From: Candidatus Nealsonbacteria bacterium
GTDB taxonomy: Bacteria; Patescibacteriota; Minisyncoccia; Minisyncoccales; JAGMDC01
Direction: 5' to 3'
Length of the DNA: 58,424 nucleotides
NCBI GenBank assembly: GCA_030643485.1
Contig: DAOWLG010000038.1
Location: forward strand, 1-58,424
Shown here: one piece after another, positions 1,415-58,223 of the stretch
Numbering within the stretch: the first letter of the stretch is position 1
Layout: every line of letters starts with the position of its first letter
The notes under the pieces: model-generated
Seen by the model: only the letters and a program-made list of their open reading frames with translations
Told to the model about the DNA's origin: nothing
Database searches by the model: none
Made by a program: the position numbers and the translations under genes

Positions 1415-1532
1415 TGCGGTTTATCAAGAGTGGCGGTTAGAGTTCTGGCTCAACAATCCGCCCAGCAACCCTTCAAAATGATTCTTTGAAGAAGGTGCTA
1501 AATCCAGCCCCACACGGGGAGAGATAAAAGGT
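1415..1532 (+). promoter_or_regulatory. SAM-I (S-box) riboswitch aptamer
   Basis: TTATCAAGAGTGGCGG...CTGGCTC...CAGCAACC...GGTGCTAAATCCAGC...GAGAGATAAAA matches the conserved S-box blocks. P1 is TTTATC (1420-1425) paired with GATAAA (1522-1527). Confidence 0.8.
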
Positions 1533-5498: not shown

Positions 5499-5535
5499 AA
5501 TTACATAGATTAAAAATTATAGAGGCGTGGGGTTT

Positions 5536-5619
5536 CCCCACACCTATTGAGGATATGCGAATTCATAAAATGAATTCGCCCCTGTCGCCTTCGGCGACTA
5601 ATCCTTAATAGGTGTGGGG
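5536..5619. repeat. CCCCACACCTA three-way-junction palindromic element, copy A
   Basis: P1 is CCCCACACCTATTGAGGAT/ATCCTTAATAGGTGTGGGG. It encloses hairpins GCGAATTCAT-AAA-ATGAATTCGC and GTCGCC-TTC-GGCGAC. Confidence 0.85.
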
Positions 5620-5646
5620 TTTCCTTATATCTTATTTTAATATAAA

Positions 5647-19572: not shown

Positions 19573-19580
19573 ACTAAAAA

Positions 19581-19711
19581 TTTTCAATTATCAATTTTCA
19601 ATTATCAATCAATTATCAAATTCCAATTTTCAAACAAATTAATTAATTTTATTAATTGAAAATTGAATCATTGAAAATTCATTGAAAATTGGTTATTGAA
19701 AATTGAAAATT
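19581..19711. repeat. About 130-bp AT-rich imperfect palindromic element (GAAAATTGAAAAT family), copy 1
   Basis: Left arm TTTTCAATTATCAATTTTCAATTATCAATCAATTATCAAATTCCAATTTTCAAAC. Centre AAATTAATTAATTT. Right arm ATTGAAAATTGAATCATTGAAAATTCATTGAAAATTGGTTATTGAAAATTGAAAAT. Nearly identical to 31961-32091. Confidence 0.9.
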
Positions 19712-19771
19712 ATTATTTTATTATACACCTATTGCGAAAAAATAAAAGTTGTGATAGTATAATGAAGAAAT

Positions 19772-21355: not shown

Positions 21356-22396
21356 TTAACAAGGCAGGGTAAAACAAAAAGTAGAACCCTTTCCTTCTTG
21401 AGATTCAAACCAAATTCGACCTTTATGCGCTTCAATTATATTTTTAGCAATAAACAAACCCAGTCCCGTTCCTTCTGTCTCCATTCTAATTATATTAGCC
21501 CCTCTAAAAAATTTAGTAAAGACACGAAATTGCTGGTCAGTAGGTATGCCTACTCCGCTGTCATACACGGAGACCTTGATTTCTTTTTTGTTTTTTCCTT
21601 TTTCCTTACATTGTAAAAAAACTATCATTTTCCCTTTTGAAGAAGTATATCTTATAGCGTTTTCAATAATATTTCTAATTGCTAATTCTATCTTTTCTTT
21701 ATCTATATTAACCTCTGGCAATTTTTTCGCTGCAATAAACTTAAAATTTATTTTTTTTCTTTTTATTTCTTCTTTATATGAACTTATTATATCTCTACAT
21801 ATTTTTTCAATGTCGTAAAAATCTTTTTTATACACATGCCTACCTTCCTCAATCTGAGTTATATTCAAAAGATCATTTATTAAGCCAATCATCCTTTCGT
21901 TGCTTCTATATGTCTTTTCTATAAATTTTTTTTGCTCTTTGGTAACTTCTCCTAAATCACCGTCTAAAAGCATTCTTAAAGTCCACTTAATAGCAGATAG
22001 AGGAGTAGGCAACTGATGAGCAGTGATAGAAACAAATTCTGTTTTCATCTGTTCTATTCTTTTTTCTCTGGTTATGTCGCGTAAAATTACCAAAGTTCCT
22101 ATCTTCTTTTTTTGTTCAAATAAAGGAACCGCGGAAACCTCCAAAACCAAATTTTCAGCAACAGTCAGTTCTTGCATTGGCGCGCTTTTTATTTTTTTTC
22201 CTAAAATTTTAATTAATCTTTTAAGATTTCCAAAGCCCGCAAGTTCTAAAACTGGCTTACCTATTATCTCCTTTTCATTAACTCTTAAAAACTCTTGTGC
22301 GCGAGGGTTTATTAAAGAAAGATTCCTTTGTTTATCAAAAACCAAAATTCCATCAGTAAGATTTGCGATAATAGGTAATGTTTTCCTTTTTATCAT
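21356..22396 (-). CDS. Cytoplasmic PAS-domain sensor histidine kinase
   Basis: H box [16 protein letters not shown] box [10 protein letters not shown] boxes YDSGVGIP and [16 protein letters not shown]. The start overlaps the upstream stop in an ATGA arrangement. Confidence 0.9.
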
Positions 22397-23082
22397 ATAT
22401 CTATATCCAGATTCCTCTGCGAGACACTGGTTTGAATTTTTATTCCCGCGTCTCCTGATGTTCCACCTGCTTTTTCTATGTCTAAAAAGATAGTCACTTT
22501 TGGCTGGTCATTGTCGCCTACCCCATCACCGGAGATATCTATTTCAAAAGCGTTTATTTCAAGATTAGATGAAGTCAAAGGGGTTTCTTGCCCGCTTATT
22601 TTTTTCATTAAACACTTATCTGTTGTATTCCAATAAAATTCTTGACACTCATTATGGTAATTTATAAATTTTATACCTCTTCCGCCTTTAGTCAATTGAT
22701 AGTTATAGTCGCAACCTTTATCTATATTATCTAAACATGGATCTTCTATTAAACAATTTTGCTCTTTTTGAGCCATGCGCAGACTCCGAGACATATACTC
22801 CATTACATAACTAGCTTGGTCTAAAACCTCTTGAGTGTTTAAGATTTTTGACTGGCTCTTTATCATAAAATTAAAAACACCCAAAATTCCTGCTATGGCT
22901 ATGGAAAAAATCATTACGGAAATCAAAAGTTCCACAAGGGTAAATCCGCTTACTGTCAATTTGTCCCGCTTTTTTCTCCGTCTTCTTGTTAATACCCTTC
23001 TTCCTCCTTTTGTTTTTGTCCGCGCCAAAAACCCGTGTGTCCTTTTCCTTTTTCTTTTTTTGGGCTGATAAGTAATAGACAT
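22393..23082 (-). CDS. rpmH: In-frame fusion of ribosomal protein L34 (residues 1-45) with a GspJ/PilW-like pseudopilin (from G46|F47)
   Basis: [45 protein letters not shown] is full-length L34. It is followed without a stop by [20 protein letters not shown], the prepilin cleavage/methylation motif with E+5. Confidence 0.8.
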
Positions 23083-23151
23083 ATTTATTTAGTGAACTTG
23101 GTAAATTTCCTATCAAATACTGTGGAAAGTCTCAACAATAAAACCTCTTCA

Positions 23152-23266
23152 AAATTTTCAATTTTCAATGACCAATTTTCAATGAATTTTCAATGATTCA
23201 ATTTTCAATGAATAAAATTAATTAATTTGTTTGAAAATTGAAAATTGATAATTGATAATTGATTTT
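23152..23266. repeat. AT-rich palindromic element, copy 2 (inverted orientation)
   Basis: Its reverse complement matches copies 1 and 3 over the centre and right arm (CAAACAAATTAATTAATTTTATTCATTGAAAATTGAATCATTGAAAATTCATTGAAAATTGGTCATTGAAAATTGAAAAT). Confidence 0.85.
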
Positions 23267-23345: not shown

Positions 23346-23365
23346 TTTTCCACATCTTATCAACA
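23346..23365. promoter_or_regulatory. Two DnaA-box-like 9-mers upstream of dnaA
   Basis: TTTTCCACA (23346-23354) and TTATCAACA (23357-23365). Each has one mismatch to TTATCCACA. Confidence 0.5.
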
Positions 23366-23427: not shown

Positions 23428-24780
23428 ATGACAAAAGAAGAATTATGGCAGGCAGTGCTTGCTCAAATTCAATTTAATATCTCCTCGGCAAATTTTGCTA
23501 CCTGGTTCAAAAACACTAAAATCTTAGTCAAAAAAGGGAAACAAATTATTATCTCTGTTCCTAACAATTTTTCTAAAGAATGGCTGGAAAATAAATACAA
23601 TAAAATTATCCTGAAAATTTTACGGGAGATGGACCAAGAGATAAAAGAAATCACATACGAAGTTTCCAAAACAGCGACAAAAACAAAAGAGCAAATTATG
23701 TCGCGCAACGGCTATCAAGATGACGGACAATTAGAATTCCCTGAATTTAAGGTTAATAAAATCACTAACCTTAACCCCCGCTATGCTTTTGAAAATTTCG
23801 TGGTTGGGGCTTACAACGAAGTCCCTCATGCGGCTATTTCCGCGGTTGTGAAAAACCCTGGTAAAATTTATAATCCGCTTTTTATTTATGGCGGAGTAGG
23901 ATTGGGAAAGACCCACTTAATCCAAGCCGCTGGCAATAAAATAGCTGAATCTTTTCCTAAAAAGAAAATCAGATATATTCCATCGGAAAAATTTATCTCC
24001 GGGGTGGTTAATTCTATTAGAAATCATAGTATTAGTAGTTTAAAATCAGACTATAAAAAAATTGATGTTTTAATTATGGACGATGTTCAATTTTTAGCAA
24101 GTAAAGAAAAAACTCAAGAAGAATTTTTCCATATCTTTAACACTTTATATGAAAAAAACAAACAGATAATTATTTCTTCAGACAGACCCCCAAGGGCGAT
24201 TTCTCCAATCGCAGAGCGGTTAAGGTCGCGGTTTGAAGGAGGGATGATAGCTGATATTGGCTTACCTGATATTGAAACAAGGATGGCAATCTTAAAAGTC
24301 AAATCACAGGAAAGAGGGGTGAATCTACCTGAAGAAACATCGGAATATATTGCTACTAATATCCAGAAAAATGTCCGCGAATTAGAAGGAGCAGTAAATC
24401 GTATCGCTGTTTATCAAAAATTAGATAACCAAAATTTTGACACTAACGCGATTAAATCAATACTTAAAAATATAATCACAAACCCTCAAAAACCGGTAAG
24501 TGTTAAAAAAATAATTCAAACCGTGGCAGAGTTTTACGATATAAAAGAAAAAGAAATTTTTGCTATTAGCCGAAGAAAAGAGATTGTAAAGCCCCGACAA
24601 ATTGCTATGTATCTTTTAAGAAATATATTAAGTTGTTCTTTCCCTTATATCGGAAGAAAATTTCAAGGAAAAGACCATACTACCACTATTTATGCTTTTG
24701 GGAAAATTTCTAAAGAACTGGAAAATAATGAGATATTAAATGAAGAAATAAATTTAATAAAACAAAGATTATGTAGTTAA
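23428..24780 (+). CDS. dnaA: Chromosomal replication initiator DnaA
   Basis: GGVGLGKTHL (Walker A), VLIMDDVQF (Walker B). C-terminal DNA-binding domain IAMYLLR...GRKFQGKDHTTTIYA. Confidence 0.97.
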   Translation: MTKEELWQAVLAQIQFNISSANFATWFKNTKILVKKGKQIIISVPNNFSKEWLENKYNKIILKILREMDQEIKEITYEVSKTATKTKEQIMSRNGYQDDGQLEFPEFKVNKITNLNPRYAFENFVVGAYNEVPHAAISAVVKNPGKIYNPLFIYGGVGLGKTHLIQAAGNKIAESFPKKKIRYIPSEKFISGVVNSIRNHSISSLKSDYKKIDVLIMDDVQFLASKEKTQEEFFHIFNTLYEKNKQIIISSDRPPRAISPIAERLRSRFEGGMIADIGLPDIETRMAILKVKSQERGVNLPEETSEYIATNIQKNVRELEGAVNRIAVYQKLDNQNFDTNAIKSILKNIITNPQKPVSVKKIIQTVAEFYDIKEKEIFAISRRKEIVKPRQIAMYLLRNILSCSFPYIGRKFQGKDHTTTIYAFGKISKELENNEILNEEINLIKQRLCS

Positions 24781-24797: not shown

Positions 24798-24874
24798 AGT
24801 GGATAATAAGTGGAAAAAATATAAAAATAAAAATCAAAGAAATAATTAGATATTTATCAACAATATTTTCCACA
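24798..24874. promoter_or_regulatory. DnaA-box cluster in the dnaA-dnaN spacer (oriC candidate)
   Basis: Reverse-strand TTATCCACT (24798-24806) and TTTTCCACT (24809-24817). Forward TTATCAACA (24854-24862) and TTTTCCACA (24866-24874). Very AT-rich surroundings. Confidence 0.5.
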
Positions 24875-24931: not shown

Positions 24932-26056
24932 ATGAAAATAATAATATTAAAAGATAATATTAAGAAAGGTTTAGAAATCATAGAAAAAATAACAGGAAAA
25001 AATTTAACCCTTCCTGTATTAAATAATGTTTTAATTTCAACAGAGAAAAATCTTTTAAGGTTATCTGGTACTGATTTAGAAATAGGAGTAAAATATTGGA
25101 CGCTATGTAAGACAGAAAAAGAAGGAGAAATAATAATTCCGGCTAAATTTGCGTCTAATTTTATTAATTCGTTACCACAAGAAAAAATATATTTGGAAGT
25201 AAAAAATAAAATTTTACATATTGAATGTAAAAATTATAAAGCAAAAATTAAAACCGAATCTACTCAGGATTTTCCTATAATTCCTAAAATAGAAACAGAG
25301 GATTTTATAAGTGTAAATAATTACCCTTTTTGTCAAGGACTTGAGCAGGTAGTAGAATTTACTACGCCAAATCAGGCAAGGCTGGAACTTTCAGGTGTAT
25401 ATTTTAATTTCCAAAAAAATAAATTAAAATTAGTTGCCACAGATAGTTTTCGCTTGGCTGAAAAAACACTTTATTTTGAAAAAGAATTAGATAAAGAATA
25501 TTCTTTTATTATTCCTCAAAGAACAGTTCAAATGATAATTAATATTTTCTCAGAAAAAGAAGGAAAAATAAGAATTTATCCCTCATCTAATCAGGTTCAA
25601 TTTGAGACATTTTTCCCGGAAATTTCCCATCCCGAAGTTCAGGTTATTTCCCGTTTAATTGAAGGCGAATACCCGAATTATCAGGAAATTATTCCTGAAA
25701 ACTATGAAACCCAAGTTTTATTATCAAAGGATAAATTTTTGAATCAAATTAAAACCGCTTCCCTTTTTAGTGAGAAAAGTAATGAAGTAAAAATAAAAGT
25801 TGTTCCTAAAGAACAAAAAATAGAAATTTTTTCTCAAAGTCCGGAATTAGGCGAAAATTATTCTGATTTAGAAGGAAAAATAACCGGAAAAGAAGTGAGT
25901 GTATCTTTTAATTGGAAATATCTATTAGAAGGGCTTTCTCGCTTGAAAAGTTCTGAAATAATAATTGGGTTAAACGGAGAAGAAGGTCCTGTAGTATTAA
26001 AGCCAAAAGGTGATGATACATATTTCTATATTGTAATGCCAATTAAGGGAAATTAA
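24932..26056 (+). CDS. dnaN: DNA polymerase III beta sliding clamp
   Basis: 374 aa directly after dnaA. Contains LSGTDLEIG, VATDSFRLAEK, a C-terminal MPIK, and three-domain length. Confidence 0.95.
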   Translation: MKIIILKDNIKKGLEIIEKITGKNLTLPVLNNVLISTEKNLLRLSGTDLEIGVKYWTLCKTEKEGEIIIPAKFASNFINSLPQEKIYLEVKNKILHIECKNYKAKIKTESTQDFPIIPKIETEDFISVNNYPFCQGLEQVVEFTTPNQARLELSGVYFNFQKNKLKLVATDSFRLAEKTLYFEKELDKEYSFIIPQRTVQMIINIFSEKEGKIRIYPSSNQVQFETFFPEISHPEVQVISRLIEGEYPNYQEIIPENYETQVLLSKDKFLNQIKTASLFSEKSNEVKIKVVPKEQKIEIFSQSPELGENYSDLEGKITGKEVSVSFNWKYLLEGLSRLKSSEIIIGLNGEEGPVVLKPKGDDTYFYIVMPIKGN

Positions 26057-28208: not shown

Positions 28209-28261
28209 AATTTTTAATTTTTTTACATCTATTCAATTGTTTTCGACCTTTTCCCACACCT

Positions 28262-28342
28262 ATTGTGGATATGCGAATTTGTGAAACAAATTCGCCTTGT
28301 CGCCTTTGGCGACTAATCCACAATAGGTGTGGGATTTCCGTC
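28262..28342. repeat. CCCACACCTA three-way-junction element, copy B
   Basis: P1 CCCACACCTATTGTGGAT/ATCCACAATAGGTGTGGG. P2 GCGAATTTGT-GAA-ACAAATTCGC. P3 GTCGCC-TTT-GGCGAC. Confidence 0.85.
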
Positions 28343-28394
28343 CGATACAATCCCTATTATATTTTTCCAAACAGATTTGTCAACCCCATTGGCA

Positions 28395-28451: not shown

Positions 28452-28480
28452 ATTAAATTTTTAATTCTTTAATTTCTAAA

Positions 28481-28531
28481 CATTGAAAATTGAATCATTG
28501 AAAATTTAATGAAAATTGAAAATTGAAAATT
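28481..28531. repeat. Partial copy (right arm only) of the AT-rich GAAAATTGAAAAT element
   Basis: CATTGAAAATTGAATCATTGAAAATTTAATGAAAATTGAAAATTGAAAATT. Confidence 0.75.
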
Positions 28532-28574: not shown

Positions 28575-28611
28575 TTATCCACAGGTTGACATTTCTAAAA
28601 TGTGCTATAAT
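28575..28611 (+). promoter_or_regulatory. Consensus DnaA box fused to a promoter upstream of the pilin leader
   Basis: TTATCCACA (28575-28583), TTGACA (28586-28591), TGC-TATAAT (-10 at 28606-28611; the spacer is only about 14 nt by my count). The block ATTTCTAAAATGTGCTATAATGAAAATGT is repeated at 57721-57749. Confidence 0.4.
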
Positions 28612-28634: not shown

Positions 28635-28706
28635 CCCCACACCTAATAAGGACAAGGTGCCGAAGGCGATAAGCGCGAATTTAGTATATCCTGAAAAAGT
28701 AGGGGG
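28635..28706. repeat. CCCCACACCTA element, degenerate copy D
   Basis: The 5' arm CCCCACACCTAATAAGGAC is intact. The 3' arm is decayed (TATCCTGAAAAAGTAGGGGG). Confidence 0.6.
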
Positions 28707-28709
28707 AAA

Positions 28710-28801
28710 CCCCACACCTATTCAGGATATGCGAATTTGTTTCACAAATTCGCTGTTCATCAAGCCTTTATGGCTTGATGGAATCCTGAATAGGTGTGGG
28801 G
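28710..28801. repeat. CCCCACACCTA three-way-junction element, copy C
   Basis: P1 CCCCACACCTATTCAGGAT/ATCCTGAATAGGTGTGGGG. P2 GCGAATTTGT-TTC-ACAAATTCGC. P3 is replaced by CATCAAGCC-TTTAT-GGCTTGATG. Confidence 0.85.
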
Positions 28802-28847
28802 AAAGGTCGGCGATTAGATTACAATTTTATCTAACATCTAATTAAAT

Positions 28848-29350: not shown

Positions 29351-29361
29351 ATTGGGGGTTG

Positions 29362-29433
29362 CCCCACACCTAATAAGGACTGACTTCGTCAATTTTAGAC
29401 GCCTTCGGCGTCTTGTCCTTATTAGGTGTGGGG
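29362..29433. repeat. CCCCACACCTA element, variant copy E
   Basis: P1 CCCCACACCTAATAAGGAC/GTCCTTATTAGGTGTGGGG encloses the hairpin AGACGCC-TTC-GGCGTCT. Confidence 0.85.
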
Positions 29434-29470
29434 TTGAGTTTTTGGGGGAATTAGTTTATTATGAGATATA

Positions 29471-30319
29471 ATGGATTTATTTTTTTATTTTTTTATATTT
29501 TTATTTGGATTGTGTATTGGCAGTTTTTTGAATTGCGTAATTTATTTGCTTGAAAGTAAAGAGAGACCTGTTCGCGGCCAAACGCGGCGAACAGGCATCC
29601 TGGGACGTTCCTTTTGCCCTAATTGCGGCCATATTTTATCCTGGAAAGATTTAATTCCTGTCTTAAGTTTTTTAATTTTGAAAGCAAAGTGCCGCTATTG
29701 CCAGAAACCTATTTCTTTACAATATCCAATAGTAGAAATAGCAACAGGGTTGCTGTTTCTACTAATTTTCAATTTTCAATTTTCAATTTTCAATCAATTT
29801 TCAATTTTCAATTTTCAAAGCATCATAGCCTTCTTTTTTCTGCTATTGATTACTTGTTTCCTGATAATTATCTTTGTTTATGATTTCAAACATTATATTA
29901 TTCCCGACAAGGTGATTTATCCTGCAATAGTTATCACCTTTTTTTATCATCTAACCAGCCATTGGGATTTGGGACTTGGCTGGCCATTAGTTATTGGGAT
30001 TTGGGACTTCATATCGCCTGCGCTTCTCGCTTCAGGATTTTTTTTGTCTATTGTCCTTATCTCACGCGGAAAATGGATGGGCTTGGGCGATGTAGGGCTT
30101 GCTTTTTTAATGGGTCTTTTACTTGGATTTCCTAATATCTTAGTAGCACTCTTCCTTGCGTTCTCAATTGGTGCTATAATAGGAACAGGGCTGATAATTA
30201 AACACAAGAAGACCCTGAAAAGCGAAGTGCCGTTTGGGCCATTTTTAGTAATCGGCACGTTTATTGCAATGTTCTGGGGAGAAAAAATTGTAAATTGGTA
30301 TCTAAATTTTGCCATATAA
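29471..30319 (+). CDS. pilD: Prepilin peptidase (A24 family, PilD-like)
   Basis: CPNCGH...CRYCQ cysteine pairs, LQYPIVEIATGLLF, multiple TM segments, WMGLGDVGL and VPFGPFLV catalytic-Asp contexts. Confidence 0.9.
   Translation: MDLFFYFFIFLFGLCIGSFLNCVIYLLESKERPVRGQTRRTGILGRSFCPNCGHILSWKDLIPVLSFLILKAKCRYCQKPISLQYPIVEIATGLLFLLIFNFQFSIFNQFSIFNFQSIIAFFFLLLITCFLIIIFVYDFKHYIIPDKVIYPAIVITFFYHLTSHWDLGLGWPLVIGIWDFISPALLASGFFLSIVLISRGKWMGLGDVGLAFLMGLLLGFPNILVALFLAFSIGAIIGTGLIIKHKKTLKSEVPFGPFLVIGTFIAMFWGEKIVNWYLNFAI
29567..29595. repeat. Palindrome inside the pilD coding sequence
   Basis: CCTGTTCGC (29567-29575) ... GCGAACAGG (29587-29595), encoding RPVRGQTRRTG. The arm sequence is related to the GACCCGTTCTCG palindrome in and after tatD. 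Confidence 0.75.
29765..29818. repeat. ATTTTCAA octamer tandem tract inside the pilD coding sequence
   Basis: 54 nt of (ATTTTCAA)n, in frame, encoding IFNFQFSIFNQFSIFNFQ. Same sequence family as the intergenic GAAAATTGAAAAT elements. Confidence 0.85.
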
Positions 30320-31782: not shown

Positions 31783-31960
31783 ATTTTATCAGGGGTTTAT
31801 TTCACCTTATTTGGGTAGCCATTGTCGGTTTTATCCGAGTTGTTCGGAATATTGTTATTTGGCAATTCAGAAATACGGACTTCTTAAAGGATTATTTTTA
31901 GGGACAAAAAGAATTCTTAAGTGCCATCCGTGGAATAAAGGAGGAATAGATACCCCTTAA
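31754..31960 (+). CDS. yidD: Membrane protein insertion efficiency factor YidD
   Basis: [19 protein letters not shown]...[17 protein letters not shown]. Confidence 0.9.
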
Positions 31961-32091
31961 TTTTCAATTATCAATTTTCAATTATCAATCAATTATCAAA
32001 TTCCAATTTTCAAACAAATTAATTAATTTTATTCATTGAAAATTGAATCATTGAAAATTCATTGAAAATTGGTTATTGAAAATTGAAAATT
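31961..32091. repeat. AT-rich palindromic element, copy 3
   Basis: Differs from copy 1 (19581-19711) by about 1 nt. Occupies the yidD-yidC spacer and the first codons of the maximal yidC ORF. Confidence 0.9.
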
Positions 32092-32840
32092 TTTGCATTG
32101 TGTTTGAGATTTTAATTTCTTTTTTTGATATTGTTTTATATAAGCCATTATTCAATGGTTTGATTTTATTGTACCAGTATTTGCCGGGTCAGGACTTTGG
32201 GATAGCCGTGATTGTCTTGACTGTTTCCATAAAAATAGTATTATATCCTTTAGGAGCAAAAAGCATTAAAATGCAAAAAGCATTGTCTGAACTTCAGCCA
32301 AAGATGAAAGAAATTCAGGAGAAATTTAAGCAGGATAAGGAAAAACAGGCAAAGGCGATGATGGAACTTTATCAAAAAGAAAAGATTAATCCCCTTTCCG
32401 GATGTTTGCCCTTATTAGTGCAACTGCCAATTTTAATTGCTCTTTATAGGGTATTTTGGAAAGGGCTGCAACCGGAACATATGGTTTATCTTTACAGTTT
32501 TGTTCCTTCCCCCGGAGTAATTAATTCTACTTTTTTGGGAATAATTGATTTAGCAGTGCCTTGTATTGCTTTAGCGTTTTTAGCAGGGATTCTTCAGTTT
32601 TTTCAGACCAAAATGATGATGCCGCACTTTTCCAAAAAGAGCGGCGGCGCAAAAAAGAAAGACCAGATGGGGCAATTTTCAGATATGATGCAAAAACAAA
32701 TGCTTTACTTTTTTCCGGTTTTCACGGTTATGATCCTATGGACGCTCCCTTCTGCTATTGGATTATACTGGATTGTTTTTACTCTATTCGCTATCATCCA
32801 GCAGCATTTTACCTTGGGAACATCTAAACAAAATGATTAA
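32076..32840 (+). CDS. yidC: Membrane protein insertase YidC (short form). The true start is probably downstream, for example GTG 32100.
   Basis: KMQKALSELQPKMKEIQEKFKQDKEKQAKAMMELYQKEKINPLSGCLPLLVQLPILIALY. Confidence 0.9.
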   Translation: MKIENFCIVFEILISFFDIVLYKPLFNGLILLYQYLPGQDFGIAVIVLTVSIKIVLYPLGAKSIKMQKALSELQPKMKEIQEKFKQDKEKQAKAMMELYQKEKINPLSGCLPLLVQLPILIALYRVFWKGLQPEHMVYLYSFVPSPGVINSTFLGIIDLAVPCIALAFLAGILQFFQTKMMMPHFSKKSGGAKKKDQMGQFSDMMQKQMLYFFPVFTVMILWTLPSAIGLYWIVFTLFAIIQQHFTLGTSKQND

Positions 32841-33294: not shown

Positions 33295-34591
33295 TCATCA
33301 TTGATTCAATTTTTATGCCTTCTGGTTCTGGGTCGTAGACATAACTGCCTTTTATAGTTGGAACACAGTCGCCAGTTTTTGGTTTTTTGAAAAGCTGGCA
33401 TTTTGCTGTTTCGTCTCCAAAACCTTCTTGCGTGTTAAGTAGGACTTCAAAATTTCCAGTGATTTTGAAAGATAGAATATTTTTATGCAATGGTTTTGTA
33501 GTGCCTTCAAAAAAATCAAATTCAAGATTTTCAAAGATTTCTGCCATAGTAGGCGTGAATGTTTTTTTGTTTCCTTTACAATCAATTGAATCATAAAAAG
33601 TTATATCTCCCGAGGTTTCTTCTTCTAAATTTAAGAGAGACAAAGAGGAAAGTTTATCTAATCCTATGGGATGGATATAGGAGAGACCTGGCGGTGAGAC
33701 AGATAAATTTTCTATATCTAATTCTCCTAATGCAACGCCGCATTCGCCTCTGAATTCGTTTTCAGTAAATAAAATCGCGCCATATAAAAAATCCGTTTTA
33801 TTATTGAATTTAATTGATTGCGTTTTGTTGTTCCAGTCGCCAAGATTGGATTCACTATTAGAAAGATATTTTGGCGGTTCTAAACAAGTATATTCACCGC
33901 TTGTATTTTCGCAAAAATCAATTTTTTTATAGAGATAAACACCAGATTTATTCCAAAAAAATAATAAAGATTTTGGAACAAAGTTAAAATTAGGTATTTG
34001 TTCTCCATTTTTAATTTCCATTATTTCCTCGTCTGTTGTTGCTTTGTAATTTTTATTTTTATAGATAAAAACCGATGTTAACTCATCAGGAGAATCTATA
34101 AATTCCATTGAGTCAGCGTCAAAATTTTTAATGTCTGAAAAATCTGTTGTTATATGTTTTTTCTTTTCTTCTGCATCTATAAGATAGATTCCGGTAACCG
34201 GCATTAATGGTTTCATTTTTCCAAAAATAGCAAGTTGAGGATTAATAGTAATTAAAATTAAATAAGTGAAAAGCAAAAGTAACAACCCCATAATCCCTCC
34301 GAGCATCCATGACCTTGCGTCGCTGATTGCCGCTGGGTTGCCAACAGACGACATCCAGCGAATCCCTCCAAAAAGCAAAACGGCAAAAGCCAAAATTCCT
34401 CCAATCATCACGGAAAAATTAAAAATGTATTTTATGTACCCTGGCAGTTCAGTCCCTTCAGCCGGCGCTTCCGCTCCCGGCACGTTCGGATAATCAATTT
34501 CCAATCCCCTTTCCGCAAACGAAAAACCACTGCACGCACAAATCACCAGAACCGCAAAAAGAGATATTAATATGAGTTTTTGGTTATTCAT
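33275..34591 (-). CDS. Surface protein: signal peptide, TrbC/VirB2-like T4SS pilin module, then a roughly 300-aa extracellular domain
   Basis: LPGYIKYIFNFSVMIGGILAFAVLLFGGIRWMSSVGNPAAISDARSWMLGGIMGLLLLLFTYLILITINP forms two TM helices around a polar loop. The C-terminal domain has Greek-key-like YLY..F...LG.WNN...S.KF...YGAILF..EFRGEC. Confidence 0.7.
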   Translation of the reverse strand: MNNQKLILISLFAVLVICACSGFSFAERGLEIDYPNVPGAEAPAEGTELPGYIKYIFNFSVMIGGILAFAVLLFGGIRWMSSVGNPAAISDARSWMLGGIMGLLLLLFTYLILITINPQLAIFGKMKPLMPVTGIYLIDAEEKKKHITTDFSDIKNFDADSMEFIDSPDELTSVFIYKNKNYKATTDEEIMEIKNGEQIPNFNFVPKSLLFFWNKSGVYLYKKIDFCENTSGEYTCLEPPKYLSNSESNLGDWNNKTQSIKFNNKTDFLYGAILFTENEFRGECGVALGELDIENLSVSPPGLSYIHPIGLDKLSSLSLLNLEEETSGDITFYDSIDCKGNKKTFTPTMAEIFENLEFDFFEGTTKPLHKNILSFKITGNFEVLLNTQEGFGDETAKCQLFKKPKTGDCVPTIKGSYVYDPEPEGIKIESMMIIPVSL

Positions 34592-34600: not shown

Positions 34601-34780
34601 GCCCCGTCCTTTGTCATTGCGAGGACCGCCACCATTGTCATTGCGAGAAGCGAACGAAGTGAGCGACGAAGCAATCTCTATTCCCTATTTAGATTGCTTC
34701 GGCTTCGCCTCGCAATGACAGGAGGGGGACGCTCGCAATGACAGATGGGACGCTCGCGATGTAGATGTCCGACATCTACA
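34601..34780. repeat. GTCATTGCGAG / GCTCGCAATGAC repeat cluster plus GTAGATGTC-C-GACATCTAC palindrome
   Basis: Multiple copies of GTCATTGCGAG..GCGACGAAGCAATCT and its complement. Palindrome at 34760-34780. Confidence 0.85.
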
Positions 34781-34788
34781 CTTCTATT

Positions 34789-36339
34789 TCAGAATGGTGT
34801 GGGAATAATAATTATTGATTCAACTCTTTTTGGATCAAAGCCAGGAAACGCCCAACTACTATATATGCTGTCGTTTTTTATACTATGGTAGCAGTTATCT
34901 GGTCCTTCGGGTTTTAAGAAAAGTTGGCAGTCATTGCCCTTAAAATGTTGCCCTGTGTTAAGCACAACTGCATAACTTCCATTGATATCAAAAGATAAAA
35001 TATTTCTATGTAATGATGAATCTATTTTTGGTCCAGGGGATTCTCCAGTGGGTTCAACCCTAAGGCAACAATCACTAGTGTAAGAGGGAGAATAATTGCA
35101 CAAAGAACAACAAGGGAAATTAGGAGGACAATCACAAGGAGTATTAGGACAACCTTTATTTGTTCCAAGATTTTTTAAAATCATTGCACCTTGATGACCC
35201 GTGAGGTCAATTTTTTTTCCATTTCCTGAACAATTAAGTCCGTCCCAGAAAACAACATCATCATAGGTTTCGCCCCAGATATTTATAAGAGCCAAAGAAG
35301 AGAGCGTATTATTTCCTATTCCATTTTCAGGAATATAATAGCCGCACCAGTCTGGCCATTCTGTGCTACATATATCTCTGGATAAATCTGGTATACTTAA
35401 ATGGAAAGCATAACCGCATTTACCTCTATGTTTATCATTAGTGAATAAAACAGCGCCGTATGTATTTTCCGGATTAAATTTTAAGGAATCTGCCCTGTTC
35501 TCCCATTTTCCGAGTTTTTCAACGCTTCCAGAAAGGTATTTTGGTGGCGTGGCGCAGAGATATTCGCTGGTGTCAGGGTTATCTAAGTCGCTTTCGCAAT
35601 AATCTGTTCCCTCATAGAGATAGACGCCCTGCTTATTTCTAAGAAAATAAATTGATTTTGGCGCAAAATCCTTATCCTCGTCAAAACTAATACTACCGTC
35701 CTTATTTTTAATTCTTTCTATCTCCGTGAAAAAATCGGCTTTGTAATTTTCATTTTTGAAAATAAAAACCGAAGTTAATTCATCAGGAGAACTGATAAAA
35801 AACATAGAGTTTGCTTGAAATTTATCAGTATCAATACTACCAGCATCTGTGACGAAATGTTGTTTTTGTTCTCCTTGTTTTTCCCCGACACAAGGAAGTT
35901 CACAAATATCTTGTTCACATAAACAAATTCCGGCAACCGGATCCAGAGGCTCCATTTTTTGGATAAACGCTAAATCAGGATTGATAGTGGTTAAAATTAG
36001 ATAAGAACCGAGCAAAAGCACTAATCCCATTATCCCGCCGAGCATCCATGACCTTGCGTCGCTGATTGCCGCTGGATTACCAACAGAAGCCATCCAGCGA
36101 ATTCCCCCAAAAAGCAAAACGGCAAAAGCCAAAATTCCTCCAATCATCACGGAAAAATTAAAAATGTATTTTATGTACCCTGGCAGTTCAGTCCCTTCAG
36201 CCGGCGCTTCCGCTCCCGGCGCGTTCGGATAATCAATTTCCAATCCCCTTTCCGCAAAAGTAAAACCGCTGCACGCGCAAATCGTGAAAACAGCAAAAAG
36301 AGATATTAAAATAATTTTCTGGTTAGATTTGTAATTCAT
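34789..36339 (-). CDS. Paralogous surface protein with the same pilin module and a larger Cys-rich extracellular domain
   Basis: The first roughly 120 aa are nearly identical to ORF 33275-34591. The C-terminal domain shares the YLYEGTDYC...LGKWENRADSLKF..YGAVLF motifs and adds a CPNTPCDCPPNFPCCSLC block. Confidence 0.7.
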   Translation of the reverse strand: MNYKSNQKIILISLFAVFTICACSGFTFAERGLEIDYPNAPGAEAPAEGTELPGYIKYIFNFSVMIGGILAFAVLLFGGIRWMASVGNPAAISDARSWMLGGIMGLVLLLGSYLILTTINPDLAFIQKMEPLDPVAGICLCEQDICELPCVGEKQGEQKQHFVTDAGSIDTDKFQANSMFFISSPDELTSVFIFKNENYKADFFTEIERIKNKDGSISFDEDKDFAPKSIYFLRNKQGVYLYEGTDYCESDLDNPDTSEYLCATPPKYLSGSVEKLGKWENRADSLKFNPENTYGAVLFTNDKHRGKCGYAFHLSIPDLSRDICSTEWPDWCGYYIPENGIGNNTLSSLALINIWGETYDDVVFWDGLNCSGNGKKIDLTGHQGAMILKNLGTNKGCPNTPCDCPPNFPCCSLCNYSPSYTSDCCLRVEPTGESPGPKIDSSLHRNILSFDINGSYAVVLNTGQHFKGNDCQLFLKPEGPDNCYHSIKNDSIYSSWAFPGFDPKRVESIIIIPTPF

Positions 36340-37687: not shown

Positions 37688-37710
37688 GTGTAGATGTCGG
37701 ACATCTACAC
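37688..37710. repeat. GTGTAGATGTC-G-GACATCTACAC palindrome
   Basis: 11-bp arms. Related copies at 34760-34780 and 42414-42434, and a variant at 56681-56703. Confidence 0.85.
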
Positions 37711-37716
37711 ATTCAT

Positions 37717-38745
37717 TTATTCTCCCTCGCAGCAAAACCAATTATCCATATAAAATTCTCTTGCGTCTAAGCAATCATTGCTATTTGGACCTTGTTTGCA
37801 TTTTGGTAAAACATTATTTCTTATAGCATCTTTGAGCGGGGACACGGAATCATCGGGAAGATAATAAGGATAACAATGGGGATAATCAGTTATTTGGTCC
37901 TCAAAAAAGCCCAAAATAACCAGGTCGCCTAATACTATTTTATCTAAGGCAATCCTACAACTTAATGTTCTCATTTTTACCTTGCCTTCCTGTATAGGAA
38001 ACCCATAACCAGTAAGGCATTGCTCTAATTTTGAGCGCGAATTAAGAAGTTTATTTGTAATTTTCCATCTGTTTGGGTCATTTGGTAATAAATTTTTTAC
38101 TTCAATCAATTTTATAAATTTTTTACAAGGACATATCATAGTGTTGTAATTTGTTTCCACATTTGTATAATTATTTGTAATATTTATGGAATGAGTTGTA
38201 ATCTGAGCGAAAATAGAATTAATTTTTGAAATTTCTCTACAAGGGTGATTAACGCTATTGCAATCGCCACAACTAAGAGAGTAGTTTATATCGCAATTTT
38301 CTCCATTTTCATCGCAGTCGCAGTCACCAGAAGGATTACAACTACAAGAACAAGAGCAGGGCACTGCTGGACAATTATCTACGCAGCCATGATTATTGTC
38401 TTTGCTGGTGAAAAAGAGCAAACACCATGCTTCATCTATTTCTGCTTCTGCTTCATCTCTCATTGATAGAGTTTTATCTTTTATTGTGATTCCTTTATTA
38501 TAAATTTTATCAAGTTCAATGATTAGTTTTTCAGCAAATAATTCTGTTTCGTCAGTTGTCTCGCCAATCGGAATTTTGCCTTTTTCAATTTTTTCTTGAG
38601 TAAATTTATTTTCCTTAAACGGGTCCACCACGCATTTTTCTTTTTGTCCCCAAGCAAAAATTTCCCTGTTTGTATTATAGAACAAGGTTGCGGATAAAGA
38701 AAGTAAAATTATCAGGAAAAACCAAATTATTTTATTACCATTCAT
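37717..38745 (-). CDS. Secreted Cys-rich protein (hypothetical)
   Basis: N-terminal signal/TM IIWFFLIILLSLSATLF. Cluster CVDNCPAVPCSCSCSCNPSGDCDCDENGENCD...CGDCNS, similar to a block in ORF 38771-41869. Confidence 0.6.
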   Translation of the reverse strand: MNGNKIIWFFLIILLSLSATLFYNTNREIFAWGQKEKCVVDPFKENKFTQEKIEKGKIPIGETTDETELFAEKLIIELDKIYNKGITIKDKTLSMRDEAEAEIDEAWCLLFFTSKDNNHGCVDNCPAVPCSCSCSCNPSGDCDCDENGENCDINYSLSCGDCNSVNHPCREISKINSIFAQITTHSINITNNYTNVETNYNTMICPCKKFIKLIEVKNLLPNDPNRWKITNKLLNSRSKLEQCLTGYGFPIQEGKVKMRTLSCRIALDKIVLGDLVILGFFEDQITDYPHCYPYYLPDDSVSPLKDAIRNNVLPKCKQGPNSNDCLDAREFYMDNWFCCEGE

Positions 38746-38770: not shown

Positions 38771-41700
38771 TTATTGGCTTCCACAACAACATTTCAAGGA
38801 CTTAGTGCAGCAACAGTGAATTTTAGGAGAAATTTTTCCGACTACATTCCATTGATCGTTACAATTATTATTATCTGTCCATTCTAATATGTACGCATAG
38901 TCTATTCCTGTCACAGGATCATTGTACGCGCATCGCATTGATATTTGTTCGATACTTTCGCAATAGTTGTTGCAGCTTGTTTCAGGCAGACTGCACCAAT
39001 AAGCAGGATTATTTATGCAATTTGACCAGGTTGCAGGCTGTTGCGTTCGGCATTGTGGATGATTTAATACGCATCGGACTTCATCCTCACAACCAGGAGG
39101 GCAGCAGCAATCACGGGTTTGGTTCATTTCATCGGGAGCGCAATTTCCTTCACCGCAGTCATCATCTCTCCACGGAGTACATTCGCAATCACAAGGCGCG
39201 CCTTCTTTGCAGTACGCGCTATTTTCACAGCATTCAGCGCAATCTGTGGCTTCCGGAAGTTTATATTCGTCGGGACAGACTTTTTCATCGTCAAGACAAC
39301 AATACCCTGATAGATCTTCTACACAAAGTTGTTGTTCAGAAGGTATAAGTTTTCCAGAGAGATAAAAACTGGCTGGTTCGCCGTCAAGATTGTAGATATC
39401 GCATAATTGTCCTGGCTGCCCCTGTCCGATTCCTTTATTTAATTCATATTCAATACATATTTCAGGATTTATTTGGTCAAACGTTTTACAATTAAATTCT
39501 CTGCAATATCTTGATATATTAAAACTATAAAATTCATTTTTATCTATTTTTTTGAATAATTTTTTATTCATATATTCAGCCAAGATGAGCGGTTCTTCGT
39601 AAACATATTTGATTAAACTTTCTGCCTCGTTTAGATAACTTAAATCTGTTTTCAATTCGTTGTTTAATGTGTTTAATCTGTTCAGCGCTTCGTTATACGG
39701 TAAAAAAGTTGGAGTAACAAGCGGATCCATTAAGGGATCGTAAAAATACAAATGTCCTTGATCAAATAAATCATAATTTGCGCCATAAATAAACGACCAA
39801 ATTTCATCTCTTTTTTCGTTTAATTCTTTCATAATATCTGGTATAATGATATTTCTTAATTCCTCCATCTCGCTTCTAAGAGGACAGGGATCGTCAGAAC
39901 AATTACAATTGCAGCTTGAATTTCCACAACCGCTACAACCTGAGCAATTTTTATCACAATGGTCGCAGTCGCATTGATTAGCGTAATTTGTCAAATCTTG
40001 AGATTTGCTTTCTATATCTACAGCTAAAATTTTTAATTCTTTAGATAGATTCTTTAATTTTTCGCTTTTTATTTTAATTGCGGTTAAGAGTTTTTTTATA
40101 CAATCCAATCTATCGTGATTTTTCATTTTATCTACTATGTCTGGAGTGCTCAAATCTATATCAATCATATCGCCACTTGGATTTGCGTCTTTAATGTCAT
40201 AATGATAACAATCAATGTTTTTAGCCAAAACATTTTCAATCAAAAGGCCGACAGGGATTTCTTGGTAATATGTTATTTCTGTTTCCGGAGGTGTATGTTC
40301 CGGTGGTTCAGAAGGTTCAAATAAAGTTAGGTCTGGCAGTTTTAAGATAGCCAGTTCAGGATTTATAGTGGTAAAGATTAAATAAGAACAGAATAAGAGA
40401 ATCAATCCCATAATTCCCGCTTTCATCCAGGACATAGCGTTGCTTATTACTTCCGGAGAACCAACAGAAGCGAGCCAGCGGATTCCTCCAAATAGCAAAA
40501 CAGCAAAAGCCATAATCACGCCAAGTATTAAGGCAAAGTTAAAAATGTATTTTATATACCCGGGCAGTTTAGTTTCTATGCCTGGTGTTTTCGCTCCCGG
40601 CACATCCGGATAATCAATTTCCAAACCCGGAATAAAACCGTCACCATCGTCACTATCACCGCAGACAGAATCAGGTACGCATTTAATAGTCCCCTCTGGA
40701 TACCCGCTGCTACATTCTCCTGAACATCCTTCTGGCTCGCATATTTCAGTTCGTTCTTTAGCGGAGTCACACACATATTGATCACTACAACCATAGTTTT
40801 TCCATTTACAAGGGGTTGGCTGTGTCGGAGCTTCACCCTCGCAAATAGAATGAGATGGCATCAGAGGGTAGTTGTCTCGGCTGTCAGGATCTATGACATA
40901 AGGAGTATCGCCTATGTCATCTCCGTCTGCGTCCACTCCTGTGTAATCGCTCCAGCAGTTTCCCTCGGCGGAGTTGTCCCAATAGTGTTCATTGGCATAA
41001 TGCTCCGATGTTATTCCATCCGATGCTTGATAAGTGTTATCTGCTATAATGTTATGGTAGATCTTAAAAAGCCCAGAATTATGCAGGAAAATCCCATTTT
41101 CATTTTCCTTTATAGTATTACGAATTATTTCATTTTCATATGAATGGAAGTCGGATTTGAGTCCATAAAAGCTATTTGATATAACATTATTGATTATTTC
41201 ATTACCTCCACTACTATGCATCAAATGGATACCGCTACCAGGGTTCGAGTCTAGAGTGTTATTAAGTATTTGATTGTAATTTGCGGTCAGTATGTGAATA
41301 CCCTCACTATTTGAATTCAAAATATTATTTTCTATCCGATTGTGATGGCAACTGCTTATGAGGATACCATAACCACATGACTTCACAATATTGTTGGTCA
41401 CCTCGTTAGAATTAGACTGAGATATTATCTTGATGCCCGCTTCGAGACCCGTCACGATGCTTAACTCTACGATGTTATCTTCTATCACATTATTAATAGC
41501 TTGTACTAAATAAATTCCATCACCCCCGTCGTTCTTCACCGTGAATCCACTGATGGTCACTCCTGTTAATGGAGTAAATGACTCACCAACTAAGGAGATA
41601 CACTTACCACTCCCGCCGCCGTCAATAATCGTTGTTTCACTATTCTCCCCTTTAAGCGTCAGAGACTTCGAGATTTCCACATTCTCGTTATAAGTCCCCG

Positions 41701-56680: not shown

Positions 56681-56703
56681 ATGGCGATGTCGGACATCGC
56701 CAT
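56681..56703. repeat. ATGGCGATGTC-G-GACATCGCCAT palindrome
   Basis: 11-bp arms. The core GATGTCGGACATC is shared with the GTAGATGTC family. Confidence 0.85.
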
Positions 56704-56717
56704 TTATTATTATTCAA

Positions 56718-56753
56718 GACCCGTTCTCGTCCGAGCACGGACGAGAACGGGTC
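56718..56753. repeat. Intergenic twin of the tatD palindrome
   Basis: GACCCGTTCTCGTCCG-AGCA-CGGACGAGAACGGGTC, followed by TCGTCC as in the coding copy. Confidence 0.9.
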
Positions 56754-56763
56754 TCGTCCGGCT

Positions 56764-57594: not shown

Positions 57595-57656
57595 TATTCT
57601 ATTATACACCTATTGCGAAAAAACACAAAAATATTCTCATTCCTAATTCACAATTC

Positions 57657-57690
57657 CCTATTGTCTTATTCGTGCGAATAAGACAATAGG
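57657..57690. repeat. Perfect 16-2-16 palindrome upstream of the ArsR-like gene
   Basis: CCTATTGTCTTATTCG-TG-CGAATAAGACAATAGG. Confidence 0.9.
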
Positions 57691-57714
57691 AAAGATAGGT
57701 GTTTTATTATTTTT

Positions 57715-58070: not shown

Positions 58071-58102
58071 AAAAATTATCATAAAAAAATTTCAAAGAAT
58101 TT

Positions 58103-58136
58103 CCTATTGTCTTATTCGCACGAATAAGACAATAGG
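58103..58136. repeat. Inverted copy of the 16-2-16 palindrome downstream of the ArsR-like gene
   Basis: CCTATTGTCTTATTCG-CA-CGAATAAGACAATAGG. The loop is CA rather than TG, so this is the exact reverse complement of 57657-57690. Confidence 0.9.
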
Positions 58137-58223
58137 AAATGTGAATGTCTGGAATCTACATTTTTGCACGATCCCTCCCCTGTGTGCAGGGGCGAGGTTT
58201 TCGGTCGTTTCGCTCCCTCAAAG

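What the first reader, a model, noticed from the sequence alone, without database searches (positions are those of the whole stretch)
5536..5619. Repeat family folding into a three-way junction with compensatory substitutions between copies
There are five copies: 5536-5619, 28262-28342, 28635-28706 (degenerate), 28710-28801 and 29362-29433 (variant). They share the closing stem CCCCACACCTA.....GGA(T/C) / (A/G)TCC.....TAGGTGTGGGG around two internal hairpins. Differences between copies are compensated. In P1 the arms are TTGAGG/CCTTAA, TTGTGG/CCACAA and TTCAGG/CCTGAA. In P2, GCGAATTCAT/ATGAATTCGC changes to GCGAATTTGT/ACAAATTCGC (two double changes). P3 is GTCGCC/GGCGAC in two copies but is replaced by an unrelated hairpin CATCAAGCC/GGCTTGATG in copy C. 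Structure is therefore conserved beyond sequence, which is the signature of a functional RNA or a structure-dependent mobile DNA (MITE/REP-like). All intact copies have the same P2-to-P3 order on the plus strand. I do not recognise the motif.
Basis: seen in the sequence. Interest (0 to 1): 0.7.

Follow-up and report, generated by a model that had tools for sequence, protein, structure and literature searches.

The report
Small mobile palindromic DNA repeat (MITE)
The repeat is real and folds as described, but it is best explained as a tiny non-coding jumping DNA element of Patescibacteria (candidate-phyla bacteria), a known kind of element, and relatives of it sit inside a ribosomal RNA gene and in-frame inside a protein gene.

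Summary
The window has four intact copies (A 5536-5619, B 28252-28334, C 28710-28801, E 29362-29433) and one degenerate, inverted copy (D 28635-28706). Each intact copy folds into a three-way junction closed by a 19-bp stem. Covariation in P1 and P2 is well above the shuffled and slid controls.

The element behaves as mobile DNA, not as a strand-specific RNA. Collection scans found 14 more distinct copies, all in Patescibacteria. Of 19 distinct copies, 13 are flanked by a 3-4 bp direct repeat (about 5% expected). One copy (68 bp plus TAAG, 72 nt) lies in-frame in a Wolfebacteria antiporter gene, and close relatives keep the exact empty site. Others sit in helix 25 of Saccharibacteria 23S rRNA and against the 5' end of a tRNA-Leu gene.

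Orientation relative to transcription is mixed. Rfam has no match. No transposase or RAYT gene is on this contig.

Verdict: a previously undescribed MITE family, that is, a new member of a known kind. The partner transposase and the cause of arm-to-arm compensation remain unknown. The 23S rRNA copies bear on the old question of where rRNA intervening sequences come from.

The parts
5536..5619 (+). Copy A, type I (P1 closing stem, P2 GCGAATTCAT hairpin, P3 GTCGCC hairpin). It lies between the divergent methylase gene (start 5498, minus strand) and recG (start 5647, plus strand).
   Evidence: 84.6 bits with model R1.
5533..5535 (.). Left copy of A's TTT target-site duplication. The right copy is at 5620-5622.
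5522..5532 (.). Right-end-like remnant GAGGCGTGGGG (compare AGGTGTGGGG), 3 bp upstream of A.
28252..28334 (+). Copy B, type I, with outer pair T..A. It is flanked by TTT (28249-28251 and 28335-28337), and TCGACCTTT abuts its left end. It lies downstream of a minus-strand promoter, so it is probably transcribed antisense relative to A, C and E.
   Evidence: 87.6 bits.
28356..28383 (-). Perfect sigma-70 consensus TTGACA-16-TATAAT pointing through B towards the minus-strand ORF that starts at 28208.
28635..28706 (-). Copy D: degenerate, chimeric and inverted. P2 is half deleted and the right arm has decayed to GTAGGGGG. It is flanked by AAA on both sides.
   Evidence: I6, I19; 12.9 bits.
28710..28801 (+). 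Copy C, type I with the long P3 (CATCAAGCC/GGCTTGATG). It is flanked by AAA (28707-28709 and 28802-28804), giving the arrangement AAA-D-AAA-C-AAA. It lies 46 nt upstream of the pilin gene start at 28848.
   Evidence: 97.5 bits.
29362..29433 (+). Copy E, type II (the same terminal arms, but inner hairpins TGAC/GTCA and AGACGCC/GGCGTCT). It is flanked by TTG (29359-29361 and 29434-29436). It lies between the pilin gene's terminator-like hairpin and the prepilin peptidase gene start at 29471.

Best explanation
[quoted passage not shown] Each copy is 62-93 bp and non-coding. The ends are 19-20 bp terminal inverted repeats, CCCC(C)ACACCTAwTnnGGAy, in which the outer 11 bp and GGA are nearly invariant. 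The interior is a variable cargo of one or two small G+C-rich hairpins. I infer that a transposase encoded elsewhere binds the two ends and pastes the element into staggered cuts 3-4 bp apart, which leaves the flanking direct repeat. Because the ends are complementary, any transcript or single strand that contains a copy folds into a long hairpin or three-way junction. This lets copies survive where an extra helix is tolerated: 5' UTRs and intergenic spacers in the window, the tip of 23S rRNA helix 25, and, when length and frame allow, inside a protein gene. Shown here: the repeats, the fold, the covariation, the duplications, one exact empty site and the range of contexts. Inferred: the transposase mechanism; that compensation between arms comes from a need for fold-back pairing during or after movement, or from arm-to-arm copying; and that RNase III would cut the 19-20 bp duplex in RNA, as it does Correia elements and rRNA intervening sequences.
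For: Target-site duplications: with fixed boundaries, 11 of 19 distinct copies have a flanking direct repeat of at least 3 bp. The count is 13 of 19 if B and L014 are scored with a T..A outer pair. Mismatched flank pairs give 5%. The duplicated sequences are TTT, TTT, AAA, TTG, TAG, TAA, CAAG, CAAG, TAAG, TAAA, TCAA and CGAG.
Empty site: the L017 antiporter ORF carries exactly 24 extra residues compared with 8 homologues, the closest 91% identical. At DNA level the empty site reads AAAAATAAGCCCAAAATT and the filled site reads AAAAATAAG[68 bp]TAAGCCCAAAATT.
Other contexts: 23S rRNA helix 25 in two Saccharibacteria species. One copy abuts tRNA-Leu so that the element's last GGG serves as the tRNA's first bases, and the tRNA's GGGCGAG is duplicated upstream.
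Distribution: the copies are only in Patescibacteria, in at least Parcubacteria-type and Saccharibacteria lineages, and P2 is 26 of 28 identical between them.
Conservation pattern: the terminal arms are shared by all copies, while the interior differs (types I, II, III and an AT-rich one). In L008 the inner hairpins have decayed but the terminal arms are still perfect.
Other points: the elements are 45-50% G+C in a 34.5% G+C contig. There is no known RNA family and no consistent orientation relative to transcription.
Against: No autonomous element or transposase with these ends was found. None of the 54 ORFs of the contig is a transposase, Y1/RAYT or recombinase. The fetched loci hold no widely spaced end pairs.
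Copy number looks low: usually one exact-pattern hit per contig.
Compensated transversions at positions of the terminal repeats that vary within one genome are not expected from transposase recognition alone. Some further constraint or copying process must be acting.
The two 23S copies, L005 and L010 show no duplication, and L009 and L001 only 2 bp.
The duplication length varies: 3 bp in the window, mostly 4 bp elsewhere.
Confidence: 0.8

Rival explanations
1. A strand-specific functional RNA (a cis-regulatory 5' UTR element or a small RNA) whose three-way junction is kept by selection on the RNA. The copies would then be paralogous regulatory sites, not mobile DNA.
For: Covariation in P1 and P2 is strong. 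A, C and E lie 27-46 nt upstream of start codons in the same orientation. Wobble mismatches lean towards G.U on the P2-first strand, about 6 against 2.
Against: The reverse strand folds as well as the forward strand. B, the 23S copies, L008 and L013 face the other way relative to transcription. In the one case where the transcribed strand is certain (23S rRNA), the RNA carries the A.C mismatch, not the G.U one. The interiors are interchangeable. The duplications and the in-frame ORF insertion show that the copies arrive as DNA. There is no Rfam match. The 6:2 lean is not significant.
Confidence: 0.07
2. A REP/REPIN-type element moved as single-stranded hairpin DNA by a RAYT (IS200/IS605-like Y1 transposase), or another structure-recognising enzyme, with no conventional transposase.
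For: The elements are palindromic and mostly extragenic, and complementarity is maintained rather than sequence. In place, the P2 loop is GAA in B and TTC in C, which points to DNA-level hairpin dynamics.
Against: REP sequences moved by Y1 enzymes insert without target duplication, by what is known of the IS200/IS605 family. Here 3-4 bp duplications are the rule. There is no Y1_Tnp gene on the contig. There is no GTAG-type head. Copy number is low.
Confidence: 0.06
3. A MITE as in the best explanation, but the compensatory pattern is a purely mutational by-product with no selection on structure. One arm would be copied onto the other by template switching or gene conversion within the palindrome.
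For: The P2 loop is flipped between B and C. Double transversions such as T:A to A:T and G:C to C:G cannot pass through a wobble intermediate. Chimeric copy D shows exchange between copies.
Against: In L008 and D the short-loop hairpins P2 and P3, where template switching should be easiest, have decayed, while in L008 the distant P1 arms stay perfect. That fits selection on the ends better than a general correcting process. This point is not decisive.
Confidence: 0.3

Closest known systems
Correia elements (CREE/NEMIS) of Neisseria, and similar bacterial MITEs (ERIC, RUP, BOX, QMITE)
   Same: Small, non-coding, with terminal inverted repeats and short target duplications. They are mostly intergenic or in UTRs. 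Their transcripts fold into stable hairpins, and Correia terminal repeats in mRNA are cut by RNase III (review PMC10969869).
   Different: The ends have a different sequence, CCCC(C)ACACCTA. The elements are much shorter (62-93 bp). The interior is modular, made of one or two independent hairpins that form a three-way junction. The duplication is 3-4 bp, not TA. The hosts are Patescibacteria. No partner insertion sequence is known. RNase III cutting was not tested.
Rickettsia palindromic elements (RPEs)
   Same: Palindromic mobile repeats that insert in-frame into protein-coding genes and are tolerated (PMC10969869). The L017 copy adds 24 residues to an antiporter with no stop codon.
   Different: RPEs are about 150 bp and are found mostly inside genes. 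Here only one of 19 distinct copies is inside an ORF. There is no sequence similarity between the two families.
Intervening sequences (IVSs) of bacterial 23S rRNA (helices 9, 25, 45)
   Same: The Saccharibacteria copies sit at the tip of helix 25, a classic IVS site. Like IVSs, they are an extended stem-loop closed by complementary termini (PMC4990558, PMC2801512).
   Different: Excision and 23S fragmentation were not shown here. Known IVSs have not, in the papers I read, been tied to a dispersed repeat family with documented target duplications elsewhere. PMC4990558 says their origin remains unclear.
REP/BIME/REPIN sequences with RAYT transposases
   Same: Extragenic palindromic repeats in which structure is conserved.
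   Different: REPs are single short imperfect hairpins present in hundreds of copies. They have no target duplication and come with a Y1 transposase gene. None of this was found here.

Membership tests
MITE (miniature inverted-repeat transposable element) | Small and without coding capacity | tested here: met
   The elements are 62-93 bp with no ORF of their own.
MITE | Terminal inverted repeats | tested here: met
   The arms are 19-20 bp and 98.9% of cells pair in P1.
MITE | Target-site duplication flanking the copies | tested here: met
   11-13 of 19 copies have a 3-4 bp direct repeat, against 5% in mismatched flank pairs. TAAG is duplicated at a site whose empty form is known.
MITE | Presence/absence polymorphism (filled against empty orthologous site) | tested here: met
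   L017 is filled, while L028, L029 and L032 are empty. At protein level there is a 24-residue insert compared with 8 homologues.
MITE | Several dispersed copies per genome | tested here: met
   The 58-kb contig has five copies plus one end remnant. L007 has two copies. Copy number elsewhere looks low.
MITE | A related autonomous insertion sequence or transposase with the same ends | tested here: inconclusive
   No transposase is among the 54 ORFs of the window. The loci hold no distant end pairs.
REP/REPIN (RAYT-mobilised) | Insertion without target-site duplication | tested here: not met
   3-4 bp duplications are present.
REP/REPIN (RAYT-mobilised) | Associated Y1 (RAYT) transposase gene | tested here: inconclusive
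   None is on this contig. The rest of the genome was not available.
Any curated RNA family (Rfam 15) | Match at or above the family's gathering score | tested here: not met
   There is no hit at the copies. In E-value mode the only hits are hairpin-type chance matches far below threshold.
23S rRNA intervening sequence (applies to the L002, L004, L011 and L012 copies only) | Extra stem-loop at helix 9, 25 or 45 of 23S rRNA | tested here: met
   The insert lies between Rfam LSU model positions 583 and 584, which corresponds to the E. coli 23S hairpin at about 540-553. That this hairpin is helix 25 is from my own knowledge of the numbering. Helix 25 as an IVS site is from PMC4990558.
23S rRNA intervening sequence | Excised by RNase III, leaving a fragmented 23S rRNA | not testable with these tools
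   This needs RNA data from these Saccharibacteria.
Integron attC site | R''/L''...L'/R' core sites (RYYYAAC...GTTRRRY) bordering gene cassettes | tested here: not met
   The ends are CCCCACACC/GGTGTGGGG, and there is no cassette array or integrase nearby.

The most novel reading that the evidence does not exclude
The family may be a structure-dependent mobile element. In this reading it moves as a folded T- or Y-shaped hairpin recognised by shape, as integron attC sites and parvovirus terminal repeats are, through a still unknown Patescibacteria enzyme. That would explain why the arms co-vary even at positions that differ between copies in one genome. It would also be a living example of how 23S rRNA intervening sequences (helix 25) and in-frame peptide inserts arise from one dispersed repeat.
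Probability: 0.15. Interest if true: 0.7.

Novelty: new member of a known kind. Interest (0 to 1): 0.45.

Why it matters
Patescibacteria have small genomes that carry few mobile elements. I found no paper describing a MITE in them: one full-text search paired the MITE term with Candidate Phyla Radiation. A 2024 review and a 183,232-genome survey do not mention the group. This family gives a marker of DNA exchange between distant Patescibacteria classes, because the ends and P2 are nearly identical in Parcubacteria-type and Saccharibacteria genomes. It also gives a clean case of a repeat being absorbed into a protein. The same family that leaves target duplications in ordinary DNA also forms the extra stem at 23S rRNA helix 25. 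This makes the 1990 idea that rRNA intervening sequences are transposition remnants directly testable; PMC4990558 still describes that origin as unclear. For annotating this contig, the practical point is that the copies should be masked as repeats and not called as RNA genes.

Tried and rejected
- A viral-contig scan with a looser end pattern returned only unrelated G+C-rich CCCCCACACCCCC palindromes.
- BLAST of copy A against the phage and plasmid collections found nothing.
- Exact look-up of the window's RecG returned nothing on record. The closest RecG relatives are only 72% identical. The locus of the one I fetched (P0002) has different gene neighbours, so the empty-site test could not be done for copy A. 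It was done on L017 instead.
- Covariance model R1 found no further copies in the window or in about 190 kb of related loci. Its weaker hits are unrelated hairpins.
- Hammerhead-like three-way junction: rejected by reading the junction strands, which lack the CUGAUGA and GAAA cores.
- B's P1 reads ATATCCACA and TAATCCACA, each one mismatch from a DnaA box. I treat this as coincidence, because one-mismatch boxes are common (26 observed against 16 expected).
- Terminator role: rejected for A and B, which lie upstream of genes.
- A composite B...C transposon: rejected because the outer flanks TTT and AAA are not a direct repeat.
- The TTC/GAA loops: I checked whether the P3 loop is a UUCG tetraloop. 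The register gives a three-base loop, so this says nothing about RNA against DNA.

Full report
**1. What is in the window**

Reading the sequence confirms five related segments:
- A, 5536-5619.
- B, 28252-28334.
- D, 28635-28706.
- C, 28710-28801.
- E, 29362-29433.

The shared end CCCACACCTA (at most 1 mismatch) occurs 11 times against 0.78 expected, and 9 of the 11 are the arms of these copies. A, B, C and E each fold into a three-way junction closed by a 19-bp stem. Their energies are -49 to -64 kcal/mol with z-scores near -12, and the reverse strand folds just as well. D does not fold.

D is not merely degenerate. It is inverted and chimeric. Its left half is 94% complementary to E's right half, and the rest matches A in reverse (pairs I19 and I6).

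All copies are intergenic:
- A lies between a divergent DNA methylase gene and recG.
- B, D and C lie in the 640-bp spacer upstream of a type IV pilin gene.
- E lies between that pilin gene and the prepilin peptidase gene.

A covariance model built from ten copies finds no further copy in the window. The contig is 34.5% G+C and the elements are 45-50%.

**2. Relatives elsewhere**

I scanned with CCACACCTA-NNNN-GGA...TCC-NNNN-TAGGTGTGG, leaving the four variable stem positions and the interior free. This found 4 loci in the set of 185,579 species genomes and 13 in the JGI metagenomes. Every locus whose source I could place is Patescibacteria: Saccharibacteria, a 'Patescibacteria group' MAG, and Wolfebacteria-like contigs.

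The window itself is a whole NCBI contig. Its RecG is at most 72% identical to that of other Parcubacteria/Minisyncoccales-type genomes.

After removing duplicates there are 19 distinct copies, including a variant-end copy in L007. All share the ends. The interiors fall into several types:
- Type I: the P2 GCGAATTTGT hairpin plus a P3 hairpin.
- Type II: E, L013 and L010.
- Short single-hairpin forms: L001, L006, L016 and L017.
- One AT-rich interior: L003.

So the conserved unit is the pair of terminal arms, not the three-way junction as such.

**3. Covariation**

On the ten type-I copies, 97.2% of stem cells pair. Nine pairs change on both sides, and 0 of 500 shuffles reach that. Sliding the 3' partner by 1-3 columns lowers pairing to 35-48%.

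The cleanest test uses the four P1 positions that my search pattern left free. There, 65 of 72 cells are Watson-Crick across 18 copies with 11 different 4-mers, against 53% for mismatched arm pairs.

L014 shows three fully compensated changes in P2: GCGAATTTGT/ACAAATTCGC becomes CCAAACTTGT/ACAAGTTTGG.

**4. Evidence that it is mobile DNA**

*(a) Target-site duplications.* With boundaries set at the C and G runs, 11 of 19 copies have a flanking direct repeat of at least 3 bp. The count is 13 if B and L014 are read with a T..A outer pair. Randomly paired flanks give 5%. In the window the duplications are TTT (A), TTT (B), AAA (C, and also D) and TTG (E).

*(b) An exact empty site.* In L017 the element lies inside a 583-residue Kef-type antiporter ORF. 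The element (68 bp) plus TAAG makes 72 nt, which is 24 codons with no stop. Eight homologues, the closest 91% identical (Candidatus Wolfebacteria), lack exactly those 24 residues. Their DNA reads AAAAATAAGCCCAAAATT, where L017 reads AAAAATAAG[element]TAAGCCCAAAATT.

*(c) A copy against a tRNA gene.* In L003/L015 a copy abuts tRNA-Leu(CAG). The tRNA starts at the element's last three G residues, and its first bases GGGCGAG are repeated upstream of the element.

*(d) Copies inside 23S rRNA.* In two closely related Saccharibacteria species (99.5% identical over 825 nt of 23S) a type-I copy sits inside the 23S rRNA gene. Rfam places it as an insertion of about 80 nt at the tip of the helix at LSU model positions 573-594. 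This corresponds to the E. coli hairpin at about 540-553. From my own knowledge of the numbering, that hairpin is helix 25.

**5. Evidence against a strand-specific RNA**

- Rfam has nothing at gathering thresholds, and only sub-threshold hairpin noise otherwise.
- Orientation relative to likely transcription is mixed. A, C, E, L005 and L009 are P2-first.
- B lies downstream of a perfect TTGACA-16-TATAAT promoter on the minus strand, so it would be transcribed P3-first.
- The 23S copies, L008 and L013 are also P3-first.
- In the 23S transcript the one P1 mismatch is A.C, not G.U.
- Overall, G.U against A.C on the P2-first strand is about 6:2, which is not significant.

**6. What remains unexplained**

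*The partner enzyme.* No transposase, Y1/RAYT or recombinase is among the 54 ORFs of the contig. No widely spaced end pairs occur in the loci I hold.

*The compensation itself.* Transposase recognition explains why the outer 11 bp and GGA are fixed. It does not explain why the variable positions stay complementary, including transversion pairs between A, B and C within one genome. The cause could be selection for fold-back pairing in single-stranded DNA or in RNA, or it could be arm-to-arm copying.
- The GAA/TTC flip of the P2 loop between B and C and chimeric D point to DNA-level palindrome dynamics.
- The perfect P1 beside decayed P2 and P3 in L008 points to selection on the ends.

*Two further regularities.*
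- A, C and E each lie exactly 3 bp downstream of a G run or a remnant right end, and that 3-bp spacer equals their duplication: GGCGTGGGG-TTT-A-TTT, AAA-D-AAA-C-AAA and GGGGG-TTG-E-TTG.
- TCGACC precedes the duplicated TTT(A) at one end of B, C, L014 and L008, although the motif is not enriched in the window.

Both regularities suggest a target preference. Insertion next to resident ends is known for some insertion sequences, which I state from general knowledge. I could not test either idea.

**7. Comparison with known elements**

The family meets every structural criterion of a bacterial MITE as set out in PMC10969869, except a known partner element.
- It works like Correia elements: terminal repeats form an RNase III-type duplex in transcripts.
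- It works like Rickettsia palindromic elements: it can insert in-frame into genes.
- The 23S copies look like intervening sequences. These are known at helices 9, 25 and 45, are removed by RNase III, and are of unclear origin, with a transposition remnant as an old hypothesis (PMC4990558, PMC2801512).
- It is not a REP/REPIN, because it has duplications.
- It is not an attC site and not an Rfam family.

I found no description of MITEs in Patescibacteria in the searchable literature. A search for the end sequence as text returned only unrelated papers among the ten listed.

**8. Verdict**

The best reading is a new MITE family (confidence about 0.8), which is a new member of a known kind. It is of moderate interest. 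The finding as stated is ordinary for a specialist in mobile elements. The host group, the three-way-junction cargo with compensated arms, the in-frame insertion and the link to rRNA helix 25 give it some value beyond annotation.

Noticed in passing
L002 60-151, L004 60-151, L011 9686-9777, L012 1885-1976: A type-I copy of the same repeat sits at the tip of helix 25 of Saccharibacteria 23S rRNA, a classic site of intervening sequences. The same rRNA genes also carry a group I intron (for example L002 2574-2825).
   Followed up: partly
L017 1664-1731 (ORF 173-1924): A copy plus its TAAG duplication (72 nt) is inserted in-frame in a Kef-type antiporter gene and adds 24 residues. Close Wolfebacteria relatives (L028-L037) have the empty site.
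   Followed up: yes
window 29759-29819, inside ORF 29471-30319: An AT-rich repeat (AATTTTCAATTTTCAAT...) of a second palindromic family lies in-frame inside the prepilin peptidase gene. It encodes LIFNFQFSIFNQFSIFNFQS between the two Pfam domains. Other members of the family are at 19574-19714, 23148-23266, 28474-28531 and 31954-32094.
   Followed up: partly
window 34760-34789, 37689-37718, 42413-42442, 56682-56711; 56226-56267 and 56717-56758; 57653-57693 and 58100-58140: There are further unrelated palindromic repeat families, for example TGTAGATGTCCGACATCTACA and GACGAGACCCGTTCTCGTCCGCGCGCGGACGAGAACGGGTCT. The contig is unusually rich in intergenic palindromes.
   Followed up: no
window 28243-28251 and 28802-28810; L014 77-85; L008 7656-7664: TCGACCTTT (or its complement) abuts one end of four copies from three different genomes, and the duplicated TTT(A) is part of it. 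This may be a preferred target sequence. The motif is not enriched in the window overall.
   Followed up: partly
window 5522-5535, 28699-28709, 29354-29361: Copies A, C and E each start exactly 3 bp after a G run or a remnant right end, and that 3-bp spacer equals their target duplication (AAA-D-AAA-C-AAA). This suggests insertion next to resident ends, or decayed tandem copies.
   Followed up: partly
window 28356-28383 (minus strand): A perfect TTGACA-16-TATAAT promoter consensus points through copy B towards the minus-strand ORF that starts at 28208.
   Followed up: no
window 1418-1530 (plus strand): A SAM riboswitch (S-box) matches above the Rfam gathering score (57.3 bits).
   Followed up: no
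window 23346-23365, 24798-24874, 28575-28583: The genes dnaA (23428-24780) and dnaN (24932-26056) are on the contig, with DnaA-box-like clusters upstream of dnaA and between dnaA and dnaN. One perfect TTATCCACA lies in the B-D spacer. The replication origin is probably near 23-25 kb, so A and B-E would lie on opposite sides of it in the same orientation.
   Followed up: no
window 22393-23082 (minus strand): One ORF combines ribosomal protein L34 (residues 3-44) with a pilin-type N-terminal methylation motif (residues 45-67). This could be a gene fusion, or a missed stop or start codon.
   Followed up: no
window 34188-34487, 35927-36226, 40308-40607; 42835-45842: Three 300-nt paralogous segments (67-86% identical) lie in large surface-protein-like genes. 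Next to them is a type IV secretion-like cluster (TraG/VirB4-type ATPase, PrgI, T4SS pilin motifs) and a GIY-YIG gene at 42011-42343.
   Followed up: no
L007 6071-6138; L008 8621-8654: These are variant family members that keep the outer CCCCCACACC but have different inner arms (CCATAACAAGCAC...). The L007 copy has a TCAA duplication, which shows that the family is broader than the exact pattern I searched.
   Followed up: partly
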